From Candidatus Pacearchaeota archaeon (GTDB lineage: Archaea; Nanobdellota; Nanobdellia; Pacearchaeales; GW2011-AR1), in contig JAIFVW010000002.1 of the NCBI GenBank assembly GCA_019662115.1, positions 1 to 32,000 on the forward strand: DNA of 32,000 bases, read 5' to 3'. Every line of letters begins with the position of its first letter. The stretch's first letter is position 1. Made by a program: the position numbers and the translations under genes. Under the pieces are notes generated by a model that saw nothing but the letters and a program-made list of their open reading frames with translations, was not told where the DNA came from and did not search any database. Positions 12,099 through 25,341 of this stretch are shown here, piece by piece.

Positions 12099-12719
12099 AT
12101 GGCTCTCACCCCTGAACAGATCAAGGAACTTAAAGGCCAGCTTCTGAAGCAAATTCAGCATCTGCCTCAAGATCAAAAGCGTGAGTTTGAGCATAAGATT
12201 GACGAAATGAGTCCTGAAGCACTAGAGCTGATGCTAAACCAGCAAAAGCAGGGTAAACAAGACAAGACTATTTTTAGAATGATTGTTGACAAAGACGTAC
12301 CTTCAACGATTATTGAAGAAAATGGGCAGGCTCTAGCAGTCCTAGATATCAATCCTATATCTCAAGGACACACGCTCATAATACCTAAAAATCATGCCAA
12401 GAAACCCGAGGATATCTCCTCGCCTGTTTTCACTCTCGCAAAAAAACTTGCAAAGAAAATTTCCCTTGAGCTTAAGCCAAAATCAGTTGACATTCTACCA
12501 GAAACAAAATTTGGGGAGACTGTAATAAACCTTCTTCCAATATATAATGTTCAAGTTTCTCTCCAGTCTGAGAGAAAAAAGTCCTCTACAGAAGAGCTTG
12601 AAAAAATAGCTCAAAAATTAAGGGCAAGAAAGAAAAAAGATAAAGCGGAAGTAATTAAGATAAGAAAGATAACATCCACTGAAAATCCAGTCGTGAAGTT
12701 GCCCAGAAGAATACCATAA
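12099..12719 (+). CDS. HIT-fold protein lacking the histidine triad, with charged N- and C-terminal extensions
   Basis: The core ALAVLDINPISQGHTLIIPKNH is HIT-like. The HxHxH position reads TVINLLPIYN. Confidence 0.6.
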   Translation: MALTPEQIKELKGQLLKQIQHLPQDQKREFEHKIDEMSPEALELMLNQQKQGKQDKTIFRMIVDKDVPSTIIEENGQALAVLDINPISQGHTLIIPKNHAKKPEDISSPVFTLAKKLAKKISLELKPKSVDILPETKFGETVINLLPIYNVQVSLQSERKKSSTEELEKIAQKLRARKKKDKAEVIKIRKITSTENPVVKLPRRIP

Positions 12720-13503
12720 TTACGAATGCAAAAAGGAATGCAGGGACAAATGGTATTCCCTCTCTGACAAGCGCAGGTTTTCTGAATTTTCTCAGCAACT
12801 TTATGTCTTTCCAAATCAGTCCATGAACGCTTTTCTTTATTACTTTCCCTCCAACCCTGATATCACTATGTAGCCAATCGCCTTCAGTGAGATTTTTAGC
12901 TGGAATTTTCTTGATCATGCAGACTTCAAGTGATTTTAGATAGAAATAAAGCAATGGAAACAAGAAAAATAAGAAGAGGCTAGATACAAACAATTCAGTT
13001 GAATGCGAGAATATCTTTACTAAAGACGAGGCAATTACGGAAAAAACAAACAAGAAGGCATATTTCTTGAATTGCGATTCAAATTCTTTCTTGAATATCT
13101 TATAGTTCCTATTAACTATAAATATACTATAAAGAAGGCTGTACAAGGCTCCTAAAAAGAAAAGAAGGAAAATAAATGCAAGAGCTATGAAGGATAATTC
13201 AATTGAAGATCCAAAGGGCAATACTGCGCCCAGCCCCATAAGGAGTTTTGCATCTCCCCCTGCAAATGCCTTTGCATAATAAAATGCATATGCAAGGCAA
13301 AAGAATGCTCCAAATCCAATAATTCCCCACATGAAAAAGCTAAAGTCATTTGTGAAGACCGAGTAAAAAGCTCTATACGCAAGAGCAAAGGCAACAAGAG
13401 AAAAGTTAAGCCAGTTTGAAACCTCTCTTGTCCTAAGATCTTGTACAGTCGCCCATGCTATCCAGACAAAAGCCAGCCCAAATAGAAAATAATATTCCTG
13501 CAT
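12655..13503 (-). CDS. A24-family prepilin/preflagellin peptidase (archaeal type, no methyltransferase domain)
   Basis: 282 aa, polytopic. First catalytic Asp in TVQDLRTREVSN; second in FAGGDAKLLMGLG (GxGD). C-terminal IPFVPAF. Soluble insert between TM helices, as in the archaeal A24 C-terminal domain. Confidence 0.8.
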   Translation of the reverse strand: MQEYYFLFGLAFVWIAWATVQDLRTREVSNWLNFSLVAFALAYRAFYSVFTNDFSFFMWGIIGFGAFFCLAYAFYYAKAFAGGDAKLLMGLGAVLPFGSSIELSFIALAFIFLLFFLGALYSLLYSIFIVNRNYKIFKKEFESQFKKYAFLFVFSVIASSLVKIFSHSTELFVSSLFLFFLFPLLYFYLKSLEVCMIKKIPAKNLTEGDWLHSDIRVGGKVIKKSVHGLIWKDIKLLRKFRKPALVREGIPFVPAFLFAFVIMVFFWATSRLDFQWMLSFLS

Positions 13504-13540
13504 TCCCAGAAAAACACGATAACCTTTATTAAACTTTATA

Positions 13541-13660
13541 CTATGACCTTAAAGGGATATTGGCAGCTCTATTTTTACCGCCCTTCTTATACTTGTTATA
13601 CCTTCCTTTAGCTCTTTTGTCATTCCTGCTCTTTCTCTTTTCTGAAAATCCGTAATCCAT
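13541..13660 (-). CDS. Small highly basic ORF (39 aa), unknown function
   Basis: MDYGFSEKRKSRNDKRAKGRYNKYKKGGKNRAANIPLRS. Missing from the track. Own TATA-like box (cTTATAAAtg, about 13683-13692) roughly 25 nt upstream. Confidence 0.35.
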   Translation of the reverse strand: MDYGFSEKRKSRNDKRAKGRYNKYKKGGKNRAANIPLRS

Positions 13661-13698
13661 ATTAGTAAGAATTAATTAACATTTATAAGATTATCTAG

Positions 13699-14136
13699 TT
13701 AAGCAAATAAACTTGTACAGTTAGAATTACTTGCAACAAGCTGATTATTGACTTTTGATTTTCCATTATAGCTTGAGTCTGCAATAAGTTCCTGGCATTT
13801 AACTACACGTGGATCGGTTGCTCCCTTAGGGCATACTATTTTGGTAGAACCGATGCTTCCCTGTAACCTAGGATCCATGCAGTTGACATATTCTGTAACT
13901 CCATCTATCTTAGTCTTTTTCACCTGACAAAAATCTAACTGAAGATTAGCCTCGTTGCTTACTTTACAAGACTGGGCAAGAGTCTCAAGACTCTGTCCTG
14001 GAGCTAATCCTATCTTTCCAAAAATGTAATCCCATCCCATGTAGAACCCTAGAATAATGAACACAAGTACGACAATACCTAGAATGATAAGGATAAGTGT
14101 CGTAATAGACAGATCCTGCCCTCTTTTATCTTGCAT
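13699..14136 (-). CDS. Class III signal peptide (type IV pilin-like) protein, 145 aa, 6 Cys
   Basis: N-terminus MQDKRG-QDLSITTLILIILGIVVLVFIILGF. Own TATA box about 25 nt upstream. Confidence 0.7.
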   Translation of the reverse strand: MQDKRGQDLSITTLILIILGIVVLVFIILGFYMGWDYIFGKIGLAPGQSLETLAQSCKVSNEANLQLDFCQVKKTKIDGVTEYVNCMDPRLQGSIGSTKIVCPKGATDPRVVKCQELIADSSYNGKSKVNNQLVASNSNCTSLFA

Positions 14137-14155
14137 TGTTTAGAGAACATTTAGT

Positions 14156-14166
14156 TATTTATAAAT
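14156..14166 (-). promoter_or_regulatory. Internal TATA box for the last pilin-like gene
   Basis: Reads ATTTATAAATA on the minus strand, centred about 25 nt upstream of the ATG at 14136. Confidence 0.5.
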
Positions 14167-14167
14167 C

Positions 14168-14632
14168 TTATTGATAGGAAGTTCTCTTCCCATCCCTGTC
14201 AAATGTTATGTGTATGTCGAATCTTCGTATGGCTGTTTCCTGTTTATTCTGGGCCTGGACAAACAATCCTGGAATAGAAAGATCATAAGAACTGCCTAAA
14301 GATGAAAATTGAAATAATCTATTTCCTACTATTACAAATAAATTTCCGGCTCCATCAATCTGTGGAGTCTCAAGCAGATGCTGCATAAATCTGCTCTTTA
14401 ATTCCTCATTGCTGCACTGCTTGCACTCCTGAATAGCAAGGCTCCCAGCATTCTCAACAGAAGAAAGGACGTAATTGTAATTAAATTCCATCTCGCTTAT
14501 CATCATATGCCTTGCCTGTGATTCGTTGCTTGTCTGATTGTCATGGCTGTTGAATACAAGAAGAGCGATAATAGATACCCCTAAAGCTATAAGAGGAAGC
14601 ATTAGCATGGGAAGATCTCCTTTTTTATCCAT
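14168..14632 (-). CDS. Class III signal peptide (pilin-like) protein
   Basis: Start moved to the internal ATG, giving MDKKG-DLPMLMLPLIALGVSIIALLVF. This cuts the overlap with the upstream gene from 68 to 8 nt. Confidence 0.6.
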   Translation of the reverse strand: MDKKGDLPMLMLPLIALGVSIIALLVFNSHDNQTSNESQARHMMISEMEFNYNYVLSSVENAGSLAIQECKQCSNEELKSRFMQHLLETPQIDGAGNLFVIVGNRLFQFSSLGSSYDLSIPGLFVQAQNKQETAIRRFDIHITFDRDGKRTSYQ

Positions 14633-15236
14633 TAATCCTCTTTTTACAGTCGAAAATCTCCTTGTCAGATTCTTTTTTCTTGCAAACATCATAATAATAC
14701 TGGATTTTCTGGCTCTGTCCAGATATGCTAAAAGTATAAGTCTTTAGATTAGGATCTTCTCCTATAAACTTGCAATTGTCAGGATTATAATATGATGCAG
14801 GCAAGGAGTCTACAATATTAAGATTTCCATGAGTCCCTGTCAAGAACAATCTAAATGCGCTATCAGCCCTATTTACCTTTATACTGTTCAAGTCAGTCCA
14901 CAAGCATATATTTCCATCTCCCTTATTCAAAGAATCAAACTTCTGCAAGGATTGTATCATCTCCTTATACAATTCTCTCATTCGATCATCTTTTGACTTC
15001 TCAGACTCCTGTTTGATAAAAATAAGTGCGCTGAATACACTTTGCTGCTTTCCTTGAAATTCAATATTTTGCAAAGGCAAGTCGCTAGCTCCTTGCAAAG
15101 AAACTTCAGGATGAAAAGGAACTCCATGTGCGGACCTCAACCCTACAGACATGAAAATAAAAACAGCCATAATCAATCCAACGCTTAATATTACGGGAAA
15201 GCCTGATATAATTTTGGCAATCTGTCCTCTCTTCAT
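14625..15236 (-). CDS. Class III signal peptide (pilin-like) protein, 203 aa
   Basis: MKRG-QIAKIISGFPVILSVGLIMAVFIFM. ATGA overlap with the upstream gene. 4 Cys. Confidence 0.65.
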   Translation of the reverse strand: MKRGQIAKIISGFPVILSVGLIMAVFIFMSVGLRSAHGVPFHPEVSLQGASDLPLQNIEFQGKQQSVFSALIFIKQESEKSKDDRMRELYKEMIQSLQKFDSLNKGDGNICLWTDLNSIKVNRADSAFRLFLTGTHGNLNIVDSLPASYYNPDNCKFIGEDPNLKTYTFSISGQSQKIQYYYDVCKKKESDKEIFDCKKRING

Positions 15237-15679
15237 AAGCCCCTCCTGACATCTTGGCTGCTCACGGTTATGATAGTATACTTCTTGGAACTAATTAAAA
15301 TCTGAGAAGTGGAGCAACTTGGATAATTGGAATTCTTATTTATTCCTGTAATCCCACAAATCTCAAAATCTCCCTCTGTTGAAAATATCCCTTTAGATCC
15401 TATACACTCGACTGTATCGCAAATCTTAATCCTATAATACTTTTTGATTATACTTTCATTAATACCGCAGGTTGCATAAAAGTCAGAAGATATTTTAGAA
15501 ATGTCATGTAATGATAGGCACTTTTGAACCTGCGCATTAAGTATTGCTGCGTCTAAAGGCTTATAGTTAAAATCATCTCCAAGAGCAATAGTGTTTCCAG
15601 CTACAACCCCTCCAATAATTAACAGGCACACAAATATGAATATAAATCCTGCAAGCTGGCTATCAACCTGCCCCCTCAT
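15233..15679 (-). CDS. Class III signal peptide (pilin-like) protein, 148 aa, Cys-rich
   Basis: MRG-QVDSQLAGFIFIFVCLLIIGGVVAG. ATGA overlap with the upstream gene. Confidence 0.65.
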   Translation of the reverse strand: MRGQVDSQLAGFIFIFVCLLIIGGVVAGNTIALGDDFNYKPLDAAILNAQVQKCLSLHDISKISSDFYATCGINESIIKKYYRIKICDTVECIGSKGIFSTEGDFEICGITGINKNSNYPSCSTSQILISSKKYTIITVSSQDVRRGL

Positions 15680-16089
15680 CTGGTCCTCACGTTGATAGTT
15701 AAGAGATTTCCAGGGACTCCAAGATCCAATTTGACTTCAGGAACTACATTGTTGAAATAAGATAAACAGTTTTTCCCAGAAGTACTAAGAGAAATGCATA
15801 ATTCATTAGATGCGGGAATGACTGAAAAGATGGATTCAAATGGCACTCCATTTCTTTTTGCAATGCGGGTTGCCCTACCTACATCTATAGTTATAGAATC
15901 TCCAACCTGTGCCTGGTTGACAATACTTACAATCTCCTGTGCATAGAAGCTTCCCCATATACCTGCACCATTATTCTGCACATACAAGTAAGATCCTATC
16001 ATGAGAACAACTAAAGCTGTAATGATAAGATAAACTACATTATCCTTTATGATCTCACCTACCGATCCTTTTTTATTTAGAAGCTCCAA
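15676..16089 (-). CDS. Class III signal peptide (pilin-like) protein
   Basis: A probable TTG start at 16089 gives (M)ELLNKKG-SVGEIIKDNVVYLIITALVVLMIG. The track start at 16158 would overlap the upstream gene by 86 nt. Confidence 0.55.
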   Translation of the reverse strand: MELLNKKGSVGEIIKDNVVYLIITALVVLMIGSYLYVQNNGAGIWGSFYAQEIVSIVNQAQVGDSITIDVGRATRIAKRNGVPFESIFSVIPASNELCISLSTSGKNCLSYFNNVVPEVKLDLGVPGNLLTINVRTR

Positions 16090-16597
16090 TATAAATTCCT
16101 CCGTCAGTCTTTGACACTCTAAGTTCAACCAAGTTCTTTGGGAATTGTATATATTCAACCCCTGTATATAGTGGGAGATCTAATCCCTTGGGACTTAATC
16201 CATCAGAAACACTAGATTTAACAGTCAGTGTGCCTGCATCGAAAGTTCGACAAAGCCCCGAGCTTGTATCCTGGCAACTCTTTACAATCCTTTCCTTGCA
16301 GACGCAAAGGCAGCTTTTCAATGAGCATCTTCCTGGAGCATCAGGATTATCCTTGTTCCATCCAAGGAGATACCAATCTGCAGGTCCTTGTACTATAAAC
16401 CTTCCAGTCTCTCCATCCTTAAGCACTCCTATTTTTCCCTCAAGACTGTCAAGTACTGCTTTTGCCTTTTCAGTGTCTTGATTAGAAGTGAAAGAGTAAT
16501 ATCCGATTACAAGAGCTCCTAGTAATATTCCGATTCCTATTGCCACAACTGTAATTCCAACAACATTCTCGCTTATTTTCTCTCCTAGCCTGTTCAT
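16073..16597 (-). CDS. Class III signal peptide-like protein, 174 aa, with a CxxxCxCxC cluster
   Basis: MNRLG-EKISENVVGITVVAIGIGILLGALVIG (Glu at +5). CSLKSCLCVCKERIVKSCQDTSSGLC. ATGA overlap with the upstream gene. Confidence 0.6.
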   Translation of the reverse strand: MNRLGEKISENVVGITVVAIGIGILLGALVIGYYSFTSNQDTEKAKAVLDSLEGKIGVLKDGETGRFIVQGPADWYLLGWNKDNPDAPGRCSLKSCLCVCKERIVKSCQDTSSGLCRTFDAGTLTVKSSVSDGLSPKGLDLPLYTGVEYIQFPKNLVELRVSKTDGGIYIGASK

Positions 16598-17613
16598 GGT
16601 GTTCCTTCAATGCTGCTGCAAAGTTGATTTATGTTCTGGAAGCTGTAAGGCACTGCCTGCACAAGAGAGCATCCTTTTTCATCGCCCTGATCCGTTTTAG
16701 TATTAAACGCTCCGCAATATCCTGCTGCAAGAGTCTGGCTTTGTTTTGAATTAATATACATATATCCTGCCGTGCCTCCGGCAACTGCTAAAGCGGAAAT
16801 AGCTCCTGCAGGAGTGAATGCAACAACTCTTGCAATGGCTGCGCTTGTTTTAGGAGCAATGATGAAAGATGTTCCGGCAACCGTTCCCGCTTGTTTTGCA
16901 AGATCAAGGAAAGAATCTGAGAAACTCTTGACCTTTATCTGCATGAAGACAAAAGCAATCTGTCTTCCCTGGCCTGTACTCAAGCTTTTAGCAGAATCAG
17001 AATATTGGTTTAATATATTTTCATCAACATTTGCATATGATGAGAAATCTCTATCAGTAAACGCCTCTAAATAAGTCAAATCTCTTCCAGGAACCTGGTT
17101 GTCTCTCATATATTTTCTAACATCAACCTTCTGCAACACTGCTGGATCAACATCGCTGTCAACAGCAACTCTTGAGCATATGACACATTTTGGCTCTGCC
17201 CTGACGAAATTCATGGAAGAAGAATATCTGCTGAACAAATCCAACTTGCCCTGGCCCATCATGCTCCAGCATGAATAAAGAGAGTCTGCAATAGTGCTTT
17301 CTATTATTCTAACGGCTTTATCCTGGTCGCTGGGCAATGTAACCTCTACAGAATCCTCTCCTGCGAATGACTCAGCACATGTTCCCCTGGAAGACCTTAA
17401 GCATATCTTTTGTGTAGTGCACTTTAAAGGGATAAGTGCTGAAGCTGAATCAGGCGCAGTTGCCCTGCTTAGTACAGATAGCCTGCAAAGATCTTCTTGG
17501 GAAGCCTGATTAAATCCAACTTTGTAAAGGAAAAACAGCAAAAGAAAAAGAGCGACAGCCGCAAAGAATACTCCTAAAAGAACTTCCGGCGAAAATCCCT
17601 CTCCCTTTTTCAT
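16594..17613 (-). CDS. Large class III signal peptide-like protein, 10 Cys
   Basis: The ATG at 17613 gives MKKG-EGFSPEVLLGVFFAAVALFLLLFFL; the track start at 17622 is a GTG. TATA box at 17633-17642. Confidence 0.6.
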   Translation of the reverse strand: MKKGEGFSPEVLLGVFFAAVALFLLLFFLYKVGFNQASQEDLCRLSVLSRATAPDSASALIPLKCTTQKICLRSSRGTCAESFAGEDSVEVTLPSDQDKAVRIIESTIADSLYSCWSMMGQGKLDLFSRYSSSMNFVRAEPKCVICSRVAVDSDVDPAVLQKVDVRKYMRDNQVPGRDLTYLEAFTDRDFSSYANVDENILNQYSDSAKSLSTGQGRQIAFVFMQIKVKSFSDSFLDLAKQAGTVAGTSFIIAPKTSAAIARVVAFTPAGAISALAVAGGTAGYMYINSKQSQTLAAGYCGAFNTKTDQGDEKGCSLVQAVPYSFQNINQLCSSIEGTP

Positions 17614-17632
17614 TAGAAACACACGAGAACAC

Positions 17633-17642
17633 TATTTATAAC
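17633..17642 (-). promoter_or_regulatory. Internal TATA box inside the pilin cluster
   Basis: Reads gTTATAAATA on the minus strand, about 24 nt upstream of the ATG at 17613. Confidence 0.45.
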
Positions 17643-17644
17643 TA

Positions 17645-17755
17645 TTACGTCAGCTTATTGAAAAGATAGACAATGGCCGCAAATAAAGCAGCAAAGAAGA
17701 AAAACCACAATATCCAGCTGACAATTTCTTCAGGCCCAACCATCGCTTTTTTCAT
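17645..17755 (-). CDS. 36-aa mini membrane ORF with a pilin-like N-terminus
   Basis: MKKAMVG-PEEIVSWILWFFFFAALFAAIVYLFNKLT. Missing from the track. Lies between two pilin-like genes on the same strand. Confidence 0.35.
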   Translation of the reverse strand: MKKAMVGPEEIVSWILWFFFFAALFAAIVYLFNKLT

Positions 17756-17785
17756 ACCTCCCTATAAAAAATCAAATTATTAAAT

Positions 17786-18580
17786 CTATGCGCATACGGT
17801 GTTAGAAGAGACTGGCTTTGACAAATCAACTAATATAAAGTTGGCTCCAATCTTTCTGCTGCAGAAATACATGCCATTCTCTGATTTATCTGTGCTCTTG
17901 CCATTTTCATCAACAATCTGATTGTATCGAATATTCACAGGCACTGCAAAAACATCATCTCTCCACTTTTTTACGCTATCACCATATTGTCTTAATACAA
18001 TAGGAGAACTTACCTCTTCAAGCCTGGAGCTTTCAGAATTCCATGAATACAAGGTTCCTTCCAAGGAAAGGTAATATAAATTGCTTGCAGTCTGATAAAA
18101 GTAAACATATCCTCTGTTTAGATTCATAGTTTTATCCGGATCGCGTCCAAAAGCTCTTATTTCAAGAGGAGGATTTGAAATCAAATTGCTTCTTATGCCT
18201 CTAGAATCATATATTGCCTGATAAGCTGGCGAATAAGAAACTCCTTTCCAGGTATAATAATAGTTCTTGAAATCTTTCACCAGCTCGGCAGAATAAACAT
18301 GCTTATCCGCTAAAATGACATTCCAATTTGGAGTCTTGCTGAAATCAATCCAGTCATTTCCATCATAATATTGTGTGATTTCATCCGCGATATTGTATCT
18401 TATAAGCTGAATTCCCTCAACTTTTGACTGGTTTTCGCCGAAGCTAGGGAATATATTTTGAACTTTGTTAATAAGGTCGAACTTCACTACACCTATTGCT
18501 AATGTTCCTATGACAACTGCAGCAATTACTGCCCCTATTATATATTCCATAGGCATTCCCTGAACTCCTTTTCTCTTCAT
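17786..18580 (-). CDS. Class III signal peptide protein with a Flp/Tad-like G/XXXXEY motif, 264 aa
   Basis: MKRKGVQG-MPMEYIIGAVIAAVVIGTLAIGVV. ATGA overlap with the upstream mini-pilin. Confidence 0.65.
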   Translation of the reverse strand: MKRKGVQGMPMEYIIGAVIAAVVIGTLAIGVVKFDLINKVQNIFPSFGENQSKVEGIQLIRYNIADEITQYYDGNDWIDFSKTPNWNVILADKHVYSAELVKDFKNYYYTWKGVSYSPAYQAIYDSRGIRSNLISNPPLEIRAFGRDPDKTMNLNRGYVYFYQTASNLYYLSLEGTLYSWNSESSRLEEVSSPIVLRQYGDSVKKWRDDVFAVPVNIRYNQIVDENGKSTDKSENGMYFCSRKIGANFILVDLSKPVSSNTVCA

Positions 18581-18729
18581 TTTCCAAACCTAAACAAATT
18601 TCTAAGATAGTCTAAAGCGTTTGTTGCCTTGTCAGTAAGGATGAGATATATCAAAAAAAGAAGGACTGCTGCCCCAATGGCAATAATCCATGGAACAAGA
18701 GCATCCCATACAATTTGTCCTCTTTTCAT
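18577..18729 (-). CDS. 50-aa mini-pilin (class III signal peptide), first gene of the minus-strand pilin operon
   Basis: MKRG-QIVWDALVPWIIAIGAAVLLFLIYLILTDKATNALDYLRNLFRFGK. Missing from the track. Its TGA overlaps the next ATG. TATA box about 24 nt upstream. Confidence 0.55.
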   Translation of the reverse strand: MKRGQIVWDALVPWIIAIGAAVLLFLIYLILTDKATNALDYLRNLFRFGK

Positions 18730-18745
18730 GTTTCAAGCAGATATC

Positions 18746-18782
18746 CAATATTATTAAATTTACCTACCGTATAATTTATAAC
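18746..18782. promoter_or_regulatory. Back-to-back divergent TATA boxes (pilin operon / platform gene)
   Basis: aatattattaaattt (18746-18760) serves the minus ATG at 18729. ataatttataac (18771-18782) serves the plus ATG at 18807. Confidence 0.5.
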
Positions 18783-18806
18783 ATACCATCCCTTGGGAAA
18801 ATAAAG

Positions 18807-20939
18807 ATGGTGACGACAAAAGAGATTCTTGATAAGTATAGCAGAAAGCTCGAATCACAGATATCGCAGGAACCCGAATCCGGAGATTATTTGCAGTTCA
18901 AGCAGGACATGCTTCCCGAAATATCCCGTTATGAAAAATGGGCTCAATCACTAGGAAACTTAATTAGGCTTAGAGTTGCTGATAAAGACAGGATCAGAGT
19001 GCAAAAGCAGCTTGATGCAGCCCATGTCACAGTTGATGCAAGCCAGGCTCTTACTCTTGCAACAATCTCAATGCTTTTAATTTTTCTGGCAACAGTTCTA
19101 GCAGCAGTCTCAATATTCCTAATTAATGGCTCAGTGCAGATTCTTTTTGTATTTCTTGGCCTTATAACCAGCATGTTCGTATTCTACTATACTTTCAGCA
19201 TGCCTCAAAGGCTTGCAAACGCATGGAGACTTAAAGCCTCTTCAGAAATGGTTCCCGCAATTCTCTATATAGTGGTGTATATGAAGCACACATCTAATCT
19301 TGAGAGAGCAGTGGAGTTTGCAGCCCAGCATCTTGAAGGCCCTCTTGCTCTTGATTTCAAGAAAGTATTCTACGACGTTGAAATAGGAAAATTTTCAAGT
19401 ATAAAATTATCTCTCGATAGCTATCTTGAAAGCTGGCAGGAATATGCTCCTGAATTTGTAGAATCATTCCATCTTATAGAGTCATCTCTTTTCGAGCCAT
19501 CTGAGACAAGAAGAGTGCAGATACTTGAGAAATCCCTTCAGATCATTCTAGATGGAGTGTATGAGAAAATGTTGAAATATTCAAGAGAGATAAGAAGCCC
19601 TCTGACAAACATATACATGCTTGGGATAATTCTTCCTACTCTTGGTTTGGCATTGCTCCCTCTTGCATCAACTCTTTTAGGGGGAGTTGTGCACTGGCAG
19701 CATGTTTTTATCATCTTCAATGTAATAATTCCATTCTTTGTTTTTTATCTTGTCTCTGAAGTTCTTCTTAAAAGGCCTGGAGGATATGGAGAATCTTCCA
19801 TTTTAGAGCTTAATCCAGATTATCCTAAATATAAGTCAAAAGCCCCATTCGCGAAGGCTGCCCTGATAGCCATACCTCTTTTTCTTATAGGAATCTCCCC
19901 GTTTATTTTTCAGATTTCAGCAATCACTTCTACGCTTGGAATAAAAAATGACTATACTCTTGGAGAGCTTGGAATTCCTTTCTTCCAGGCTATGAAGTTA
20001 TTTGACTTCAAGCAGGTAGGAGATAATACTGTAGGCCCGTTTAGCCCTTTGGGAGTTATTCTTAGTTTCTTCATTCCTCTTTCAATCGGATTCTTCTTTT
20101 CATCTGCATATAAAGCAAAAACCAAGGACTTGATAAAAGCAAGGGAAAACACAAAAACTCTTGAGCAGGAATTTACAAATTCCCTGTTTCAGCTTGGTAA
20201 CAGGCTTGGCGATGGAATCCCTGCAGAAATAGCATTCTCAAAGGTAGCTGAGTCAACTCAAGGGCAAGCAACACATTCATTCTTTCTTTTGACAAGCCAG
20301 AATATCCAGCAAGGAGGAATGTCTTTAGAGGAATCCATATTTGACAAGAAAAGAGGTTCAATAACATATTACCCATCATCACTTATTGCAACATCTATGC
20401 GCATCTTAGTTGAATCAGTTAGAAAAGGTTTGCAAGTTGCTGCCCGTTCTTTGATGTCAATATCAGACTATGTAAAAAATATTGATAAGATCAATCAAAG
20501 GCTGAAAGATCTTCTTGCAGAAGTTGTCTCGGATATGAAGTCTAATATGACTTTCCTTGCTCCTCTTCTTGCAGGAATAGTTGTAGGGCTTTCGGTGATG
20601 ATCACGACAATCCTCAATCAGCTTGGAACAATACAAGGAGCCGTGGCTGGAGCTTCAGGTCTGGGAGGATTCGGAAATCTTCTAGATCTCTTTAAGGTAA
20701 GCGAGATGATTCCTCCTTATTTCCTCCAGGGAATAATAGGACTTTACATTGTAGAAATAGTATTTATTCTTACAGCGGCTCTCGTCACAGTTGATGCAGG
20801 AAAAGACACTCTCAAGGAAAAATATGAGATTTCAAGAAACCTCAAAACAGGAATATCACTCTATATCATTACAGCTTTACTTGCAACTCTTGCATTGACA
20901 ACTCTAGCAACTATAGTCCTTCCAAGCCTGACAGGATAA
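18807..20939 (+). CDS. Polytopic membrane platform protein of a type IV filament system (FlaJ/TadC/PilC-like)
   Basis: About 710 aa. Cytoplasmic N-terminal region followed by many TM segments in two blocks. Convergent with the ATPase gene. Start moved to the ATG at 18807, because the track's N-terminal 39 aa overlap the mini-pilin gene and its promoter. Confidence 0.6.
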   Translation: MVTTKEILDKYSRKLESQISQEPESGDYLQFKQDMLPEISRYEKWAQSLGNLIRLRVADKDRIRVQKQLDAAHVTVDASQALTLATISMLLIFLATVLAAVSIFLINGSVQILFVFLGLITSMFVFYYTFSMPQRLANAWRLKASSEMVPAILYIVVYMKHTSNLERAVEFAAQHLEGPLALDFKKVFYDVEIGKFSSIKLSLDSYLESWQEYAPEFVESFHLIESSLFEPSETRRVQILEKSLQIILDGVYEKMLKYSREIRSPLTNIYMLGIILPTLGLALLPLASTLLGGVVHWQHVFIIFNVIIPFFVFYLVSEVLLKRPGGYGESSILELNPDYPKYKSKAPFAKAALIAIPLFLIGISPFIFQISAITSTLGIKNDYTLGELGIPFFQAMKLFDFKQVGDNTVGPFSPLGVILSFFIPLSIGFFFSSAYKAKTKDLIKARENTKTLEQEFTNSLFQLGNRLGDGIPAEIAFSKVAESTQGQATHSFFLLTSQNIQQGGMSLEESIFDKKRGSITYYPSSLIATSMRILVESVRKGLQVAARSLMSISDYVKNIDKINQRLKDLLAEVVSDMKSNMTFLAPLLAGIVVGLSVMITTILNQLGTIQGAVAGASGLGGFGNLLDLFKVSEMIPPYFLQGIIGLYIVEIVFILTAALVTVDAGKDTLKEKYEISRNLKTGISLYIITALLATLALTTLATIVLPSLTG

Positions 20940-20950
20940 TTTATGAATGA

Positions 20951-23224
20951 TTAAAAGTTGGCGGCAGAATGATAAAGCCACTTCTTCCATTCGGGAAAGA
21001 CAAGGTCGCTAACAGGAAGACCTACATTCTGAACAACCTCATCGCTTATTTTATGAAATACCGCGTTTGACAATGCATTGAATTTGGCCTCTAGTATTTC
21101 GGGTTTACCAATTCTTGCAGCCGCATCAACGATCTCCTGCTTCATCTTGCCTCTAAGAAGGATGTTATCATATACGGCATCCCAGTTTCCAGCCCAACCC
21201 TTGACTCTGGAAGCAATGCTTTTTATGATTTCAGACTCTCCATTTATTAATTCCTGTGTAGGCTCTAATTCATCTTTCTCAACATTATATCTTAGAAGGT
21301 CCACAAAACCAACTTCCTCTATTGGGTCCTTGCTCCAGTGTTTTCTCACTTCAGTTACACTTACAACTCTTTTTACCGAATGTAATCCATCAGGGGTCTT
21401 TACAGGGTTTGCAACAATGATCAAGTCAGTTGCCTTGAAGCTTGTCGCTGGCACATCTAAGTCATTTACAACTCTATCGAAAACTCCATATGGAGAATCT
21501 CCATGAATAGTCCCTGCAACCACATTTGCCAAAGCTCCAACTCTCATCGCCTCATATAATGCCTTTGCCTCAGAACTTCTAACCTCTCCTACGATAAGCG
21601 CAGAATCTCCAAGTCTTAAGCTTGCTCTTATGCCTTCACTAGCTTCAATTTCAGTAGTGCCAGCGACTAGAGCGCTACGCACTTTCAAGCGAAGTATGTC
21701 ATATCCTATAGCTCTTAGAGAGTCCACAGGAAGTTCTAAAGTGTCTTCAACTACAATGACTCTATACTTTGGCATTATCTCAAGTAGCAGGCTCCCAAGC
21801 AAAGAGGTTTTTCCAGCGCTTCTTGTTCCTGCAACCAACAAAGTTCTTGAGCCGTCAATGAGAAAACTTAGCAATCCTGCAGCGAAAGAATTAATCATTT
21901 TATTTTTAATGAACAAAGGTAAAGTCCAAGGCTGATCCCTGTGTCTTCTGAATGCATATGCTAATCCTGAAGGAGAAAGGGGTTCTTTTATAGCTGCGAC
22001 TCTAGCTCTTGAACTGCCAAAAACAAGGTCTGTATCTAAAACTGGGTTCGCCTCATCAAGCGGCCTTCCTGACTGCAATCTCAATTTAGCAGCCCAGCTT
22101 TCAGCATCTTCGTAACTAGGAAGGATGTTAGTGACGCATTCATCATATTTTTCATGTCTCACGAATACTGTATTCTGTGAAATAGGCGCATTAAGAACAA
22201 CATCTTGTAATTGCTCATCAGCTAGAAGCACCTCTATTAATCCGAATCCAATAGTATGCCTTACAAGAATCTCAGACAAGTCAGTTAGCTCCCTATAAGT
22301 TAAGTTTATCCCTTTAGATCTAGATAGTTCAGTCAATAAATCTCGGGCAACATTAAAGAATACCTGTCTTGTTCTTTCCGGATTGGTGAACTCTTCCGCC
22401 TTAGGCCTATGTTCTGTCAATACATTCCTGGCCAAGTTTAAAAGAACATGATGCTCCTCCTTCAATGCATACTCCGGAGGCATTATATGATAAAAATACT
22501 TTGAGTCATTTGGTCTTTTTAGTATTGTAACAACAATATCTCCCTGTTTTCCATCTATAGAATACTGATCAATAAGCTCTCCATCACTAGGAAGTTGCGC
22601 AATCAATCTTGTAAAAGTAAAATTAGGAAGAACATCAGGTCTGAATATAGGCTGATAAATTTCCCTGCTTCCAAGAGTGTAATCCCCTAGATTGCTTATG
22701 ACAGAGCGTATGAGTTTAGTGCTCTCTAGCAATCCAAGAAACCTTTCTAGAAATCTAATATAACTTGCAAGCGCGGGCTTTTTTGCTACGTTTCCTGAAA
22801 CAAGCTGTTCACGTAGTCCCTTTATTCTTGATCCCATTTCTACATAACATCTTACAGGATCCTGCTTTAATAGCACAAGTAAATAACTCAAGTCCTCGTA
22901 AACCTGCGAAGTCTCTCCAAAAATGCTTAGTTTCTCAGGAGACAATATTGCCTCCTGCTTAGTCATATAATTGTAAAGCCTTGCAAGCTCAGACAAAAGC
23001 AAGACTTGCTCTGATGGATAGTTGTAATTCCTTTGCTGTACAAAAACAACCCGAGAGACCTCCGGGTTTTCACCTAGGCTTTCAATTGTTCTTTCCATAA
23101 CACTAGGATTGTCAGAAAGAGAAGGAACAAAGGGCGCAGTGAGATAATTGACATACATTACATCTTCTCCCTGCTTTCTTTCAACTTCAATTGCATATAC
23201 CGGACTTCCCTCTTTAAACATCAT
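20951..23224 (-). CDS. Type II/IV secretion-family ATPase (FlaI/PilB/TadA-like) with a long N-terminal region
   Basis: 757 aa. Walker A GTRSAGKTS (about residues 466-474). Asp box VIVVEDTLEL. Walker B LIVGEVRSSEA. His box AGTIHGDS. Confidence 0.85.
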   Translation of the reverse strand: MMFKEGSPVYAIEVERKQGEDVMYVNYLTAPFVPSLSDNPSVMERTIESLGENPEVSRVVFVQQRNYNYPSEQVLLLSELARLYNYMTKQEAILSPEKLSIFGETSQVYEDLSYLLVLLKQDPVRCYVEMGSRIKGLREQLVSGNVAKKPALASYIRFLERFLGLLESTKLIRSVISNLGDYTLGSREIYQPIFRPDVLPNFTFTRLIAQLPSDGELIDQYSIDGKQGDIVVTILKRPNDSKYFYHIMPPEYALKEEHHVLLNLARNVLTEHRPKAEEFTNPERTRQVFFNVARDLLTELSRSKGINLTYRELTDLSEILVRHTIGFGLIEVLLADEQLQDVVLNAPISQNTVFVRHEKYDECVTNILPSYEDAESWAAKLRLQSGRPLDEANPVLDTDLVFGSSRARVAAIKEPLSPSGLAYAFRRHRDQPWTLPLFIKNKMINSFAAGLLSFLIDGSRTLLVAGTRSAGKTSLLGSLLLEIMPKYRVIVVEDTLELPVDSLRAIGYDILRLKVRSALVAGTTEIEASEGIRASLRLGDSALIVGEVRSSEAKALYEAMRVGALANVVAGTIHGDSPYGVFDRVVNDLDVPATSFKATDLIIVANPVKTPDGLHSVKRVVSVTEVRKHWSKDPIEEVGFVDLLRYNVEKDELEPTQELINGESEIIKSIASRVKGWAGNWDAVYDNILLRGKMKQEIVDAAARIGKPEILEAKFNALSNAVFHKISDEVVQNVGLPVSDLVFPEWKKWLYHSAANF

Positions 23225-23305: not shown

Positions 23306-23599
23306 ATGGAAGAGGGATATCAGTCATATGGAGGGGATGTGCAGACTAGATTGCGCGATATAGAGGAAAAACAAAGACTTCTTAGAGACAGGATATTATT
23401 ATTGGGACAAACACTAGTAGAAGAAAGGGAAAAAAGTTTTAAGGAAGTGCAAGAAATGAAAAAAATAACACTGAAGCTCAAAGAGGAAAATGACAGGATG
23501 AAGGAATTCTTGCAGAGAGTCACAGAACAGCTTGGAAGTACCGCAAGAAAGGAAGAGCTCATGATGCTTCAGAGGCAGTTTGACTTATTCAGGAGATAA
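23306..23599 (+). CDS. Small coiled-coil protein, unknown function
   Basis: 97 aa, heptad-rich (RLRDIEEKQRLLRDRILLLGQTLVEEREKSFKEVQEMKK...). Confidence 0.55.
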   Translation: MEEGYQSYGGDVQTRLRDIEEKQRLLRDRILLLGQTLVEEREKSFKEVQEMKKITLKLKEENDRMKEFLQRVTEQLGSTARKEELMMLQRQFDLFRR

Positions 23600-23600
23600 A

Positions 23601-24263
23601 ATGGGAGTAATAGAAGATATACAAAGAATGCAGAATGAAGGAAGTACTGATCAGGATATAATTTATTCCCTTCAGGAAAGGGGTATCCCAAGCACACAAA
23701 TAACCGATGCTTTATCCCAGGCAAAAATAAAGAAGGCAGTGACTGAAAACGACTACGAGTCTACAGTTTCACCTGGAAATATCCCATCTCCTCAGGAATT
23801 AGGCAATCTCGGACAGAAATTTGAGGGCATGCAGCCTTCAATGATGAATGTGGCTCCCTCTCAGGCGCAAGAACAGCCTGAATATGCAGCTCAGCCTCAA
23901 TATCAAGCCTATCAGCAAAATTACGCTCAAGAGGCTCCCGGACAGCAATATGACTATAGCTATCAGCCAAGTGTAAGCCCTGATACTATTGCAGAAATAT
24001 CGGAGCAGATAGTGTCTGAAAAGATATTTGCGATAAAAAAAGAGTTTGAAAAGACAATGGACATGAAGACAATATTTGAGTCAAAGATAGAATTTATTGA
24101 TGAGCGCTTGAAGAGAATAGAGAAAATAATTGATCGCCTTCAATTGTCCATATTGCAGAAAGTAGGAGAGTACACTACAAATGTCGAAGATATAAAAAAG
24201 GAGTTAGTGGAAACACAAAAATCATTCAAGTCTCTTTCTGAAAAAAGACATCATCATAGATAG
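23601..24263 (+). CDS. Protein with a UBA-like N-terminal hairpin, Q/Y/P-rich linker and C-terminal coiled coil
   Basis: The ATG at 23601 sits 1 nt after the upstream stop with GGAG upstream. MGVIEDIQRMQNEGSTDQDIIYSLQERGIPSTQITDALSQA. PEYAAQPQYQAYQQNYAQEAPGQQYDYSYQP. C-terminal IEFIDERLKRIEKIIDRLQ. Confidence 0.55.
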   Translation: MGVIEDIQRMQNEGSTDQDIIYSLQERGIPSTQITDALSQAKIKKAVTENDYESTVSPGNIPSPQELGNLGQKFEGMQPSMMNVAPSQAQEQPEYAAQPQYQAYQQNYAQEAPGQQYDYSYQPSVSPDTIAEISEQIVSEKIFAIKKEFEKTMDMKTIFESKIEFIDERLKRIEKIIDRLQLSILQKVGEYTTNVEDIKKELVETQKSFKSLSEKRHHHR

Positions 24264-24761
24264 TTATTTGCTTCTTACTAATACCCAGCTTACTAAAGCT
24301 CCAACCACAATAAGAAGAAATGCACCAGTAATTCTTGGAGAGTATGCCCATTCCGAAAAATTGCTTGGCCCACCAGGAAGATAAGCCTCGAAATAAGATG
24401 AGAATACCATTATTGCAGAGACAATAAATATCACAATAAGGAATATAGCGAACCCTCTTCCTACCATAGGGCTCCAACTCTTTGCAAAATCTCCGCCTAT
24501 AAATCCTATAAGTGCAAGCATCAAGAACAGGCTTACAATAAGAACTGCAAACCATGGAATTATGCTTAATACATAATTTCTAGGTCCAATGGCTGATACA
24601 AATACAGTTGCTAATATAAATGAAGCAAGAAGTTCGATGAACTTATTCTCGATTACCTTTGTCTTGTTTAATACAACAAATACGACAATGAAGACAAATA
24701 AGAAACTCAATAAAGGAAGAAAAATTACAATGCCTGAAAGATCAATCTGGCTTACCATCAT
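24264..24761 (-). CDS. 4-TM membrane protein, paralog C
   Basis: 165 aa. FLPLLSFLFVFIVVFVVLNKTKVIENK. 4-nt overlap with paralog B. Confidence 0.6.
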   Translation of the reverse strand: MMVSQIDLSGIVIFLPLLSFLFVFIVVFVVLNKTKVIENKFIELLASFILATVFVSAIGPRNYVLSIIPWFAVLIVSLFLMLALIGFIGGDFAKSWSPMVGRGFAIFLIVIFIVSAIMVFSSYFEAYLPGGPSNFSEWAYSPRITGAFLLIVVGALVSWVLVRSK

Positions 24762-25294: not shown

Positions 25295-25341
25295 AGCGGT
25301 CTAATCAAAGATTAATTTATATATGTTTCGTTAGGGTAACT

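What the first reader, a model, noticed from the sequence alone, without database searches (positions are those of the whole stretch)
12655..23224. Complete, compact type IV filament (Epd/Tad-like) locus with ten consecutive prepilin-like genes
An A24 prepilin peptidase (12655-13503) is followed on the same strand by ten ORFs (13699-18729). Every one of them begins with a short basic stretch ending in Gly, then a 20-25 residue hydrophobic helix:
- KRG-QIVWD
- VQG-MPMEY
- MVG-PEEIV
- KKG-EGFSP
- RLG-EKISE
- KKG-SVGEI
- MRG-QVDSQ
- KRG-QIAKI
- KKG-DLPML
- KRG-QDLSI

Most of these genes are chained by ATGA overlaps. The operon shares a back-to-back TATA region with a roughly 710-aa FlaJ/TadC-like platform gene. 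That gene is convergent with a 757-aa FlaI/PilB-family ATPase whose Walker A sits unusually far in, around residue 470.

There are no archaellins and no FlaF/G/H, so this is a pilus or pseudopilus rather than an archaellum. Ten distinct filament or tip subunits is a large complement for what looks like a reduced-genome archaeon. It suggests a specialised surface appendage, for example for host-cell attachment or DNA or substrate uptake. The extracellular domains resemble nothing I recognise.
Basis: partly seen in the sequence, partly recalled or inferred. Interest (0 to 1): 0.78.

Follow-up and report, generated by a model that had tools for sequence, protein, structure and literature searches.

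The report
DPANN archaeal type IV filament locus
This stretch of a tiny-genome Pacearchaeota (DPANN) archaeon encodes a complete pilus-type machine: motor ATPase, membrane platform, leader peptidase and ten different pilin-like subunits. The machine is conserved in hundreds of related species, has never been studied experimentally, and is probably how these presumed symbionts stick to surfaces or host cells.

Summary
On the minus strand, ten consecutive genes (18729→13699) each encode a short basic leader ending in Gly/Ala, then a ~20-residue hydrophobic helix. A catalytically intact A24 peptidase lies downstream. A 710-aa polytopic membrane protein (weak T2SSF match) diverges from the operon and converges on a 757-aa T2SSE ATPase with all motifs intact.

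All ten families recur once per locus in about 47 related Pacearchaeota/Woesearchaeota loci. They share the leader consensus M-N-K-[KR]-[GA]: 88% of members carry it, against 7% of control N-terminal-TM ORFs. In one subclade, leaderless versions of the two tiny subunits start exactly at the predicted +1 residue.

None of the ten matches any Pfam or NCBIfam family. AlphaFold models of two of them (pLDDT 76 and 86) have no PDB match.

The ATPase carries a ~295-aa N-terminal domain found only in this ATPase family. Two cytoplasmic coiled-coil genes next to it are conserved even in distant relatives with a different genomic context, so they belong to the system.

The best reading is a DPANN-specific variant of the archaeal type IV filament machinery, nearer to Epd/Tad than to the archaellum but a member of neither. 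Such loci were noted before (Makarova 2019; Hamm 2024). Filament formation and function are inferred.

The parts
23601..24263 (+). cc227. Cytoplasmic accessory protein with a ~50-aa N-terminal domain, a Q/P-rich linker and a C-terminal coiled coil. The likely ATG is at 23601; the mechanical ORF starts at TTG 23580.
   Evidence: It has no TM helix and no Pfam hit. It is present next to the ATPase in 68 of 82 related loci. A family HMM also finds it divergently upstream of distant ATPase relatives in different genomic contexts: L085 at E 1.9e-18 and L086 at E 7.7e-15. This fits the coiled-coil-protein genes of the DPANN loci in Hamm et al. 2024, but homology to those proteins was not tested.
23306..23599 (+). 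cc97. A small 97-aa cytoplasmic coiled-coil protein, the first gene of the pair that diverges from the ATPase.
   Evidence: It is found in 69 of 82 loci. Its HMM finds the equivalent gene in the distant loci L085 (E 5e-7) and L086 (E 6e-7).
20951..23224 (-). Assembly ATPase, 757 aa. It has a clade-specific N-terminal domain (residues 1 to ~295) followed by a FlaI/CpaF/GspE2-type N2 domain and catalytic domain.
   Evidence: T2SSE scores 44 bits. In NCBIfam the TadA family scores 137 bits and FlaI 122 bits, both far below their cut-offs. In the PDB, 2OAP scores 94.7 bits, CpaF 82.5 and FlaI 63.4. Walker A, Asp box, Walker B and His box are all intact. The N-terminal domain finds only 307 representatives among 1.84 billion proteins, and always at the N-terminus.
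18807..20939 (+). Probable platform protein, 710 aa, with about 9 TM helices and two ~150-aa cytoplasmic domains.
   Evidence: T2SSF scores 18 bits, below the gathering score of 25.2. Only 5 of 28 orthologues match at E<0.1, best 1e-4. Neither the single sequence nor a profile finds a PDB match. The gene is always adjacent to the ATPase, including in the distant loci, with phmmer E 1e-54 to 1e-72.
18730..18806 (.). A 77-bp AT-rich divergent intergenic spacer with two TATA-like runs, at 18746-18760 and 18770-18781.
   Evidence: Read directly from the sequence. The runs lie about 17-37 nt upstream of the two start codons. Promoter function is inferred, not tested.
18577..18729 (-). P1. A 50-aa pilin-like protein, MKRG|QIVWDALVPW..., that is essentially one helix with no globular domain. 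It is a candidate Flp/Epd-type major subunit.
   Evidence: The leader, the TM helix and a conserved C-terminal [FL]RFG[KR] motif appear. Median identity to orthologues is 45%. Leaderless orthologues start at the predicted +1 residue.
17786..18580 (-). P2. A 264-aa pilin-like protein. The likely cleavage site is MKRKG|VQGMPMEY.
   Evidence: Family consensus M-N-K-[KR]-[GA]. No Pfam or NCBIfam hit.
17645..17755 (-). P3. A 36-aa single-helix protein. The likely site is MKKA|MVGPEEIV.
   Evidence: It is found in 43 loci. 31 of 44 members carry a [KR][GA] leader. The other 13 are leaderless and begin in register with the predicted +1 residue.
16594..17613 (-). P4. The largest pilin-like protein, 339 aa, MKKG|EGFSPE, with 8-10 conserved cysteines.
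   Evidence: It occurs once per locus in 47 loci. A database search found 140 hits, all 'hypothetical' and without Pfam domains. The AlphaFold model has pLDDT 76.5 and pTM 0.74. It shows an N-terminal helix (residues 9-31), an alpha/beta domain and a low-confidence hydrophobic Ala/Gly-rich insert at 245-292. There is no PDB or BFVD match.
16073..16597 (-). P5. A 174-aa pilin-like protein, MNRLG|EKISE. Leu at position -2 is atypical; the family consensus is K[KR][GA].
   Evidence: It is found in 48 loci. Glu is frequent at +5/+6. Six cysteine columns are conserved.
15676..16089 (-). P6. A 137-aa pilin-like protein with a TTG start, (M)ELLNKKG|SVGEI.
   Evidence: Start codon. Found in 47 loci. 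44 of 47 members carry [KR][GA].
15233..15679 (-). P7. A 148-aa pilin-like protein, MRG|QVDSQ.
   Evidence: Found in 47 loci. Four cysteine columns are conserved.
14625..15236 (-). P8. A 203-aa pilin-like protein, MKRG|QIAKI.
   Evidence: Found in 46 loci. Gln occupies +1 in 29 of 44 members.
14168..14632 (-). P9. A 154-aa pilin-like protein, MDKKG|DLPML.
   Evidence: Found in 46 loci. 44 of 46 members carry [KR][GA].
13699..14136 (-). P10. A 145-aa pilin-like protein, MQDKRG|QDLSI, with a small Cys-rich domain. It is the only family that is often duplicated.
   Evidence: 77 members in 47 loci. 153 database hits, all hypothetical. The AlphaFold model has pLDDT 86. It shows a long helix (residues 11-42) and a small, mostly helical domain. 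There is no PDB match.
13541..13660 (-). A conserved 39-aa, very basic ORF between the last pilin-like gene and the peptidase. Whether it belongs to the system is uncertain.
   Evidence: It sits at the same position in at least 24 loci at phmmer E<=2.3e-4. It has no TM helix.
12655..13503 (-). A24 (FlaK/PibD/EppA-type) prepilin peptidase, 282 aa. It is a long form with a ~55-aa soluble insert before the last TM helix.
   Evidence: Peptidase_A24 scores 55 bits. FlaK structure 3S0X matches at E 8.6e-9. D22 is invariant and GGD lies at 81-83. TM pattern. The gene is only loosely linked: it is displaced in L002 and L083.

Best explanation
This is a lineage-specific type IV filament (TFF) machine of Pacearchaeota/Woesearchaeota-type DPANN archaea.

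Proposed mechanism:
1. Ten pre-proteins insert into the membrane with the short basic leader (consensus MNK[KR]G) facing the cytoplasm and the Cys-rich domain outside.
2. The A24 aspartyl peptidase removes the leader after the Gly/Ala.
3. The hexameric T2SSE-family ATPase, docked on the 710-aa polytopic platform and probably organised by the two cytoplasmic coiled-coil proteins, uses ATP to lift the processed subunits out of the membrane.
4. The subunits pack through their N-terminal hydrophobic helices into a surface fibre.
5. One subunit forms the shaft. Candidates are the 46-residue Flp/Epd-like P1 and the frequently duplicated P10.
6. The other single-copy subunits, which keep a fixed gene order, form a priming or tip complex that carries the binding surfaces.

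Because there is no second (retraction) ATPase in the locus, the most likely role is adhesion to surfaces or to host cells.

Shown here: the gene content, the catalytic motifs, the conserved leader, and conservation across hundreds of genomes. Inferred: cleavage, filament assembly, subunit roles and biological function.
For: - Core enzymes are identified and have intact motifs.
- The ten families are each single-copy and syntenic in about 47 loci, although only 27-45% identical. The ATPase and platform are 67% and 64% identical, the usual pattern of fast-evolving pilins around a slow-evolving motor.
- All ten unrelated families share the leader M-N-K-[KR]-[GA], 88% of members against 7% of controls. 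The modal leader length is 5. E, Q or D occupies +1 in 48% of members, and an acidic residue lies within +1..+6 in 78%.
- Leaderless P1-like and P3 variants start exactly at the predicted +1 residue.
- Cysteines are conserved and lie almost entirely C-terminal to the TM helix in P4, P5, P7 and P10, which fits extracellular disulfide-bonded domains.
- Both AlphaFold models begin with a long N-terminal helix.
- Distant ATPase relatives in unrelated genomic contexts keep the arrangement coiled-coil pair, ATPase, platform. Two of the three longer distant loci (L085, L087) also keep runs of [KR][GA]|Q-type small proteins.
- The literature reports type-IV-pilus-like loci with coiled-coil genes across cluster-2 DPANN, with proteomic expression in Ca. 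Nanohaloarchaeum antarcticus (PMC11291902).
Against: - No pilin, flagellin or class-III-signal Pfam/NCBIfam model matches any of 133 family members.
- The two modelled globular domains do not resemble any solved pilin.
- Only 57% of predicted sites satisfy the FlaFind core rule.
- A polar or charged stretch of 5-10 residues separates the Gly from the hydrophobic core, which is unusual for archaeal pilins.
- The platform fails Pfam's T2SSF threshold and shows no detectable internal repeat.
- The peptidase is only loosely linked to the operon.
- No filament, cleavage or expression data exist for this lineage.
Confidence: 0.75

Rival explanations
1. The machine does not build a long pilus. It builds a short pseudopilus or a surface-anchored complex, like a T2SS piston or the Sulfolobus bindosome. 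Its job would be to export or display the Cys-rich domains, or to breach or bridge the host envelope, rather than to make an adhesive fibre.
For: - Ten different single-copy subunits in fixed order look more like a defined complex than a set of interchangeable pilins.
- The globular domains are not pilin-like.
- P4 carries a hydrophobic Ala/Gly-rich insert.
- There is only one ATPase.
- NCBIfam also gives a weak BasE (bindosome ATPase) match of 54 bits.
Against: - No substrate-binding-protein or enzyme domain is present in any of the ten.
- P1 and P3 are bare helices, like the Flp/Epd shaft subunits.
- The BasE score is far below the TadA-family and FlaI scores.
Confidence: 0.15
2. The fibre is a competence (DNA-uptake) pilus. 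It would serve nucleotide and DNA scavenging by an organism that lacks biosynthetic pathways.
For: This is a general analogy with the Com and type IV competence pili of reduced-genome CPR bacteria (literature cited). The window offers no direct evidence.
Against: No ComEC, ComEA or DprA-like gene lies in the window or in the related loci examined. There is no retraction ATPase in the locus.
Confidence: 0.07
3. The ten proteins are ordinary signal-anchored or Sec-exported surface proteins. They merely neighbour an unrelated secretion ATPase and are never processed by the A24 peptidase.
For: There is no pilin-family match. 43% of sites fail the FlaFind core rule. The peptidase is separable from the operon in some genomes.
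Against: - The conserved [KR][GA] sits at a fixed distance from the TM helix in ten unrelated families, 88% against 7% in controls.
- Leaderless variants begin at +1.
- The hydrophobic segment is TM-length and has no AxA-type site.
- Linkage to the ATPase and platform persists in distant genomes.
Confidence: 0.03

Closest known systems
Type-IV-pilus-like loci with coiled-coil protein genes in cluster-2 DPANN (Hamm et al. 2024, Nat Commun, PMC11291902), and DPANN 'dark-matter' pilin islands (Makarova, Wolf and Koonin 2019, PMC6393860)
   Same: - A CpaF/FlaI-type ATPase and a TadC-type platform sit next to coiled-coil genes.
- They are accompanied by unannotatable signal-peptide proteins presumed to be pilins.
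- Pacearchaeota and Woesearchaeota are explicitly listed among the lineages.
   Different: - Those papers do not describe the ten-family subunit set, its shared MNK[KR]G leader, the leaderless variants, the dedicated peptidase or the clade-specific ATPase N-domain.
- I could not test whether cc97 and cc227 are homologous to their coiled-coil proteins, because no sequences were available.
Epd pilus of Methanococcus maripaludis (archaeal TFF 'System 1'; Makarova 2016, PMC4858521; Sivabalasarma and Albers 2026 preprint)
   Same: - A large operon with many pilin-like genes and a dedicated, long-form prepilin peptidase.
- A very short subunit that lacks a globular domain.
- Gln is frequent at +1 and an acidic residue lies near +5.
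- The ATPase is nearer to Tad/CpaF-type enzymes than to FlaI.
   Different: - There is one 710-aa platform gene instead of two.
- There is no Class_IIIsignal/DUF361 match.
- All subunit families are unrelated to known arCOG pilins.
- The ATPase has an extra ~295-aa N-domain.
- Two coiled-coil partners are present.
- Phylogenetic placement of the ATPase could not be done here.
Bacterial Tad/Flp pilus (CpaF/TadA, TadB/TadC, TadV, Flp, TadE/TadF)
   Same: - The best-scoring ATPase relatives are here: TIGR03819 at 137 bits and CpaF structures at 82 bits.
- A tiny helix-only subunit is encoded first in the operon.
- The peptidase lacks a methyltransferase domain.
- Pseudopilin-like extra subunits are present.
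   Different: - There is no TadZ, no secretin, and no pair of platform proteins.
- There is no Flp (G|xxxxEY) or TadE Pfam match.
- The genomic context is archaeal.
Archaellum (ArlI/ArlJ/ArlB plus ArlF, G, H and C/D/E or X)
   Same: An ATPase and platform pair of the same superfamily, and an A24 peptidase.
   Different: No archaellin, ArlF/G, ArlH or ArlCDE/X genes are present. The FlaI model scores 122 bits against a cut-off of 550.
Minor-pilin/pseudopilin sets of bacterial T4aP and T2SS (FimU-PilVWXE plus PilY1; GspH-I-J-K)
   Same: Several non-interchangeable, single-copy pilin-like subunits are encoded in fixed order. In those systems they are thought to prime assembly and form the tip.
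   Different: There is no sequence or fold similarity, and the set here is about twice as large.

Membership tests
Type IV filament (TFF) superfamily | Secretion ATPase of the T2SSE/FlaI/PilB family with Walker A, Asp box, Walker B and His box | tested here: met
   PF00437 scores 44 bits against a cut-off of 24.9. All four motifs are present. PDB relatives are afGspE2, CpaF and FlaI.
Type IV filament (TFF) superfamily | Polytopic platform protein of the T2SSF/FlaJ/TadC family | tested here: inconclusive
   T2SSF scores 18 bits, below the cut-off of 25.2. Only 5 of 28 orthologues match at E<0.1. There is no PDB hit and no detectable internal repeat. Support comes only from topology and invariant adjacency to the ATPase.
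Type IV filament (TFF) superfamily | A24 prepilin peptidase with two catalytic aspartates | tested here: met
   PF01478 scores 55 bits. FlaK structure 3S0X matches at E 8.6e-9. D22 is invariant and the GGD motif is present.
Type IV filament (TFF) superfamily | Substrates with a class III signal peptide: a short basic leader, Gly/Ala at -1, then a hydrophobic helix | tested here: met
   The consensus M-N-K-[KR]-[GA] is shared by ten families, 429 of 487 members against 17 of 251 controls. Leaderless variants start at +1. Actual cleavage cannot be tested with these tools.
Type IV filament (TFF) superfamily | Subunits adopt the pilin fold (a long alpha-1 helix packed on a beta-sheet) or are helix-only | tested here: inconclusive
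   P1 and P3 are helix-only by length. The P4 and P10 models have the N-terminal helix, but their globular parts match no solved pilin.
Archaellum | Archaellins plus ArlF/ArlG and ArlH, with ArlCDE or ArlX | tested here: not met
   No Arch_flagellin or other archaellum family is found among the locus proteins, their neighbours, or 133 family members. The FlaI equivalog scores 122 bits against a cut-off of 550.
Epd pilus / archaeal TFF System 1 | Two separate platform genes (TadB/TadC-like) | tested here: not met
   A single 710-aa platform gene is present here and in all related loci. The feature is as stated in the Sivabalasarma and Albers preprint.
Epd pilus / archaeal TFF System 1 | Pilins of the DUF361/Class_IIIsignal type (Q at +1, QxSxE) | tested here: not met
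   No PF04021 hit in 133 members. Gln at +1 is frequent in P8 and P10, and Gln is joint-commonest at +1 overall (73 of 429); an acidic residue near +5 is also frequent. That is a resemblance only.
Epd pilus / archaeal TFF System 1 | ATPase belongs to the Epd clade in a phylogeny | not testable with these tools
   No Epd reference sequences were available. Only indirect score ranking could be used, with TadA family and CpaF above FlaI.
Bacterial Tad/Flp pilus | Flp pilin motif, TadZ, a TadB plus TadC pair, and TadE/TadF pseudopilins | tested here: not met
   There are no Flp_Fap or TadE matches, no ParA-like gene, and only one platform gene.
Cluster-2 DPANN coiled-coil/CpaF/TadC locus (Hamm et al. 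2024) | Coiled-coil protein genes adjacent to the ATPase and platform, conserved across DPANN lineages | tested here: met
   cc97 and cc227 are found in 68-69 of 82 loci, and in the distant loci L085 and L086 with different flanks. Sequence homology to the Nanohaloarchaeum coiled-coil proteins was not tested.

The most novel reading that the evidence does not exclude
This is a distinct, DPANN-specific subsystem of the type IV filament superfamily, not covered by the current arCOG-based classification. A motor made of an ATPase with a private N-terminal domain, two coiled-coil partners and a one-piece, highly divergent platform would assemble a heteromeric organelle. That organelle would be built from ten non-homologous subunits of new fold and would be the host-contact device of Pacearchaeota/Woesearchaeota episymbionts. 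That would also contradict the published view that pili on ultra-small groundwater cells mark them as CPR bacteria because DPANN lack type IV pilus genes (He et al. 2020 preprint).
Probability: 0.35. Interest if true: 0.7.

Novelty: new variant of a known kind. Interest (0 to 1): 0.5.

Why it matters
Pacearchaeota and Woesearchaeota are abundant and uncultured. Their genomes are about 0.5-1 Mb, and their lifestyle (free-living or symbiotic) is unresolved.

A 12-kb, roughly 16-gene surface machine kept intact across hundreds of species is a large investment for such genomes. It is a prime candidate for how they contact hosts or surfaces.

The conserved MNK[KR]G leader gives a simple rule for finding further substrates of the peptidase in these genomes. 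The ten subunit families and the ATPase N-domain are concrete targets for structure work, for antibodies or FISH-EM to identify these cells in samples, and for heterologous cleavage and assembly assays.

The finding also warns against using 'has pili' to tell CPR bacteria from DPANN archaea in cryo-EM images.

Tried and rejected
The alignments had to be rebuilt from database hits.
- The sigma-70 promoter and terminator scan is not above shuffled expectation and does not apply to an archaeon.
- hhalign found no relation between the globular or mature parts of the ten families: none above 50% (globular) or 80% (full mature) probability. They are therefore not recent paralogues.
- hhalign of the two halves of the platform found no internal repeat, but the alignment diversity was low (Neff 2.2).
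- Platform searches against the PDB, with a single sequence and with a profile, found nothing.
- Foldseek of P4 against viral structures, prompted by the 'viral attachment protein' idea in Hamm et al., found nothing.
- Three paralogous 4-5-TM membrane proteins (24264-25848) were considered as extra parts. They were dropped because they are absent from the distant loci, so their adjacency may reflect general synteny only.
- Rigorous placement of the ATPase among the Epd, Aap, Ups, Tad and archaellum clades could not be done for lack of reference sequences.

Full report
**Source and context**

The window comes from a Candidatus Pacearchaeota (DPANN) contig. The 757-aa ATPase is 100% identical to an NCBI protein of that name on a 47.9-kb contig. 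The flanks carry archaeal housekeeping genes: RadA, ribosomal proteins, aIF2-alpha, Hef helicase/nuclease, an RPA-like OB protein and EF-1-beta. G+C is about 38% throughout, with no compositional break at the locus.

**Checking the observation**

They lie on the minus strand, so the transcription order is as follows:

| Gene | Coordinates (5'→3' on minus strand) | Length |
|---|---|---|
| P1 | 18729-18577 | 50 aa |
| P2 | 18580-17786 | 264 aa |
| P3 | 17755-17645 | 36 aa |
| P4 | 17613-16594 | 339 aa |
| P5 | 16597-16073 | 174 aa |
| P6 | 16089-15676 (TTG start) | 137 aa |
| P7 | 15679-15233 | 148 aa |
| P8 | 15236-14625 | 203 aa |
| P9 | 14632-14168 | 154 aa |
| P10 | 14136-13699 | 145 aa |
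| basic ORF | 13660-13541 | 39 aa |
| A24 peptidase | 13503-12655 | 282 aa |

Of the nine junctions between the ten genes, four are ATGA overlaps, two overlap by 8 and 17 nt, and three are ~30-nt gaps.

- The peptidase hits Peptidase_A24 at 55 bits and the FlaK structure 3S0X at E 8.6e-9. It keeps the first catalytic Asp (D22, invariant in 20 orthologues) and a GGD motif.
- The platform most likely starts at 18807, giving 710 aa. A 77-bp AT-rich spacer with two TATA-like runs separates it from P1. It converges on the ATPase across an 11-nt gap.

**Are the ten proteins prepilin-like?**

None matches any Pfam or NCBIfam model. A scan of 133 orthologues from 13 related loci and the window also found no pilin, flagellin, Flp, TadE or Class_IIIsignal family. 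The case therefore rests on comparative data.

The best 80 are 63-76% identical, all from Pacearchaeota, Woesearchaeota or Nanoarchaeota MAGs.
- In these loci the ATPase and platform are 67% and 64% identical to the window, whereas the small proteins are 27-45% identical.
- Iterated HMMs recover each of P3-P9 once per locus in 43-48 loci. The profiles of P1, P2 and P10 cross-hit through a shared N-terminus. Gene order is largely fixed.
- In every family the N-terminus has the consensus M-N-K-[KR]-[GA]. A family-specific polar start follows (for example P4 ELTSTQI, P8 QIGK, P9 DIP, P10 QE[LM]S), and then the hydrophobic helix.
- [KR][GA] just before the first TM helix occurs in 429 of 487 members, against 17 of 251 control N-terminal-TM ORFs from the same loci. 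[KR][KR][GA] occurs in 370 of 487 against 8 of 251.
- The modal leader is five residues. E, Q or D occupies +1 in 48% of members, and 78% have an acidic residue within +1..+6. Only 57% satisfy the FlaFind core pattern.
- In one subclade the P1-like and P3 proteins have no leader at all. They begin (M)ELTI... and MNLDEVIK..., in exact register with the predicted +1 residue of their leader-bearing orthologues. This independently marks the Gly/Ala as the processing point.
- Conserved cysteines lie almost wholly after the TM helix, with 8 conserved columns in P4, 6 in P5, 4 in P7 and 5 in P10. This fits extracellular disulfide-bonded domains.

**Structures**

- P4, with an alignment of 110 homologues that are all 'hypothetical', gave pLDDT 76.5 and pTM 0.74. 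The model has an N-terminal helix, an alpha/beta domain, and a low-confidence hydrophobic Ala/Gly-rich insert at 245-292.
- P10, with 94 homologues, gave pLDDT 86. It has a 32-residue N-terminal helix and a small, mainly helical Cys-rich domain.
- Neither has a significant Foldseek match in the PDB (best E 0.36 and about 1). P4 has none among viral models.
- The ten families are not detectably related to each other beyond the leader and helix.

Equally, a canonical pilin fold is not demonstrated.

**The motor**

- NCBIfam ranks the ATPase nearest the TadA family (137 bits over residues 302-585). FlaI follows at 122 bits and BasE at 54 bits, all far below the equivalog cut-offs.
- PDB ranking is afGspE2 (94.7 bits), then CpaF (82.5), then FlaI (63.4), aligning from about residue 293 onward.
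- Residues 1-295 were searched exhaustively against 1.84 billion representatives. Only 307 proteins were found (50 at E<=1e-30), and the match was always at the N-terminus. The full-length hits were 720-800 aa; the others were intein-expanded proteins of 1260-1780 aa or shorter proteins, probably fragments. The 'late' Walker A is therefore due to a clade-specific N-terminal domain. Variable N-domains are described as typical of archaeal TFF ATPases.
- The platform is very divergent. T2SSF scores 18 bits, below the cut-off of 25.2, and only 5 of 28 orthologues match at E<0.1. There is no PDB hit and no detectable internal repeat. Its identity rests on topology, about 9 TM helices with two ~150-aa cytoplasmic domains, and on invariant pairing with the ATPase.

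**Extra parts**

Two cytoplasmic coiled-coil genes, cc97 (23306-23599) and cc227 (about 23601-24263), diverge from the ATPase in 68-69 of 82 loci.

Overall synteny is conserved among close relatives, so I looked at distant ATPase relatives whose N-domains are 28-32% identical. In L085 and L086 the flanking genes are entirely different, yet cc97-like and cc227-like genes again sit divergently upstream (HMM E 5e-7, 6e-7, 1.9e-18 and 7.7e-15) and the platform follows. L085 and L087 also carry runs of small proteins with RKG|Q, RKA|Q and KG|Q starts.

The conserved core is therefore coiled-coil pair, ATPase and platform, with a class-III subunit operon. This matches Hamm et al. 2024, who reported two conserved type-IV-pilus-like loci (CpaF, TadC and coiled-coil proteins) across cluster-2 DPANN, including Pacearchaeota, with proteomic expression in Ca. 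Nanohaloarchaeum antarcticus.

**Comparison with known systems**

- **Archaellum.** It is not one: there are no archaellins and no ArlF/G/H/CDE/X.
- **Epd (System 1) and Tad.** It resembles them in the tiny helix-only subunit, the many pilin-like genes, the dedicated peptidase, Gln at +1 with an acidic residue near +5, and ATPase affinity. It fails their defining features: two platform genes, DUF361 or Flp motifs, and TadZ.
- **Earlier notices.** Makarova et al. 2019 already remarked that DPANN islands with FlaI, TadC and signal-peptide 'dark matter' are probably diverse pilins. The 2026 MacSyFinder census mentions only 'a few DPANN' in Systems 1 and 4A.
- **A contrary statement.** He et al. 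2020 stated that type IV pilus components are missing in DPANN and used pili to identify cells as CPR bacteria. This locus argues against that shortcut.

**Verdict**

This is a real, complete and widely conserved type IV filament-type locus, and a DPANN-specific variant of a known kind. The ten-family subunit set, the common leader, the leaderless variants and the private ATPase N-domain appear to be undescribed. Cleavage, fibre formation, subunit roles and function (most likely adhesion to surfaces or hosts) are inferences.

Noticed in passing
window 13541-13660 (-): A conserved 39-aa, highly basic microprotein (MDYGFSEKRKSRNDKRAKGRYNKYKKGG...) sits between the last pilin-like gene and the peptidase. 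It holds the same position in at least 24 related loci at phmmer E<=2.3e-4. It has no TM helix and its function is unknown.
   Followed up: partly
window 24264-25848 (-): Three tandem paralogous 4-5-TM membrane proteins of 165, 178 and 168 aa. The hhalign probability between two of the families is 100%. They are conserved beside the locus in 55-60 of 82 close relatives but were not found in the distant loci. No Pfam match.
   Followed up: partly
window 6514-7539 (+): A 341-aa surface protein with an N-terminal TM or signal segment (MKRS-YLSALIIG...), an Fn3-like domain and dockerin type I repeats (Pfam Dockerin_1, E 5e-14). Dockerin repeats are an unusual feature in a DPANN archaeon.
   Followed up: no
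P0033, P0084; P0361, P0365, P0375, P0376 etc.: Some orthologous ATPases are 1260-1780 aa long. P0033 and P0084 carry intein/LAGLIDADG Pfam domains (PF14528, PF14890), so this ATPase gene is an intein target in some lineages.
   Followed up: no
L053, L066, L069, L072, L076, L078, L081, L082, L015: In one subclade the P1-like and P3 proteins lack the leader. They start directly with M(A)ELTI... and MNLDEVIK..., which suggests subunits that bypass the peptidase.
   Followed up: partly
window 18577-18729 (-), C-terminus of P1: P1 orthologues end in a conserved [FL][RK]FG[KRG] motif after an amphipathic helix. Its meaning is unknown.
   Followed up: no
L083 4622-5768: In one relative a MazE/PIN toxin-antitoxin pair and another small gene are inserted between the ATPase and the platform. 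An acetyltransferase gene lies between the platform and the subunit operon. The locus therefore tolerates insertions.
   Followed up: no
L057, L058, L060, L061, L064, L066, L069, L072, L082 and others: In one subclade the platform gene is co-directional with the ATPase instead of convergent, as it also is in the distant loci L084-L087.
   Followed up: no
window 7546-8699 (-): Two adjacent 2OG-Fe(II) oxygenase/Ofd1-like genes, resembling ribosomal prolyl hydroxylases, lie next to radA.
   Followed up: no
window 16594-17613 (-), P4 residues ~245-292: P4 has a hydrophobic Ala/Gly-rich segment (…AGTSFIIAPKTSAAIARVVAFTPAGAISALAVAGGTAGYMYI…). It is modelled as low-confidence helices and scores as TM-like. 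It could be a membrane-active or flexible loop in the largest subunit.
   Followed up: no
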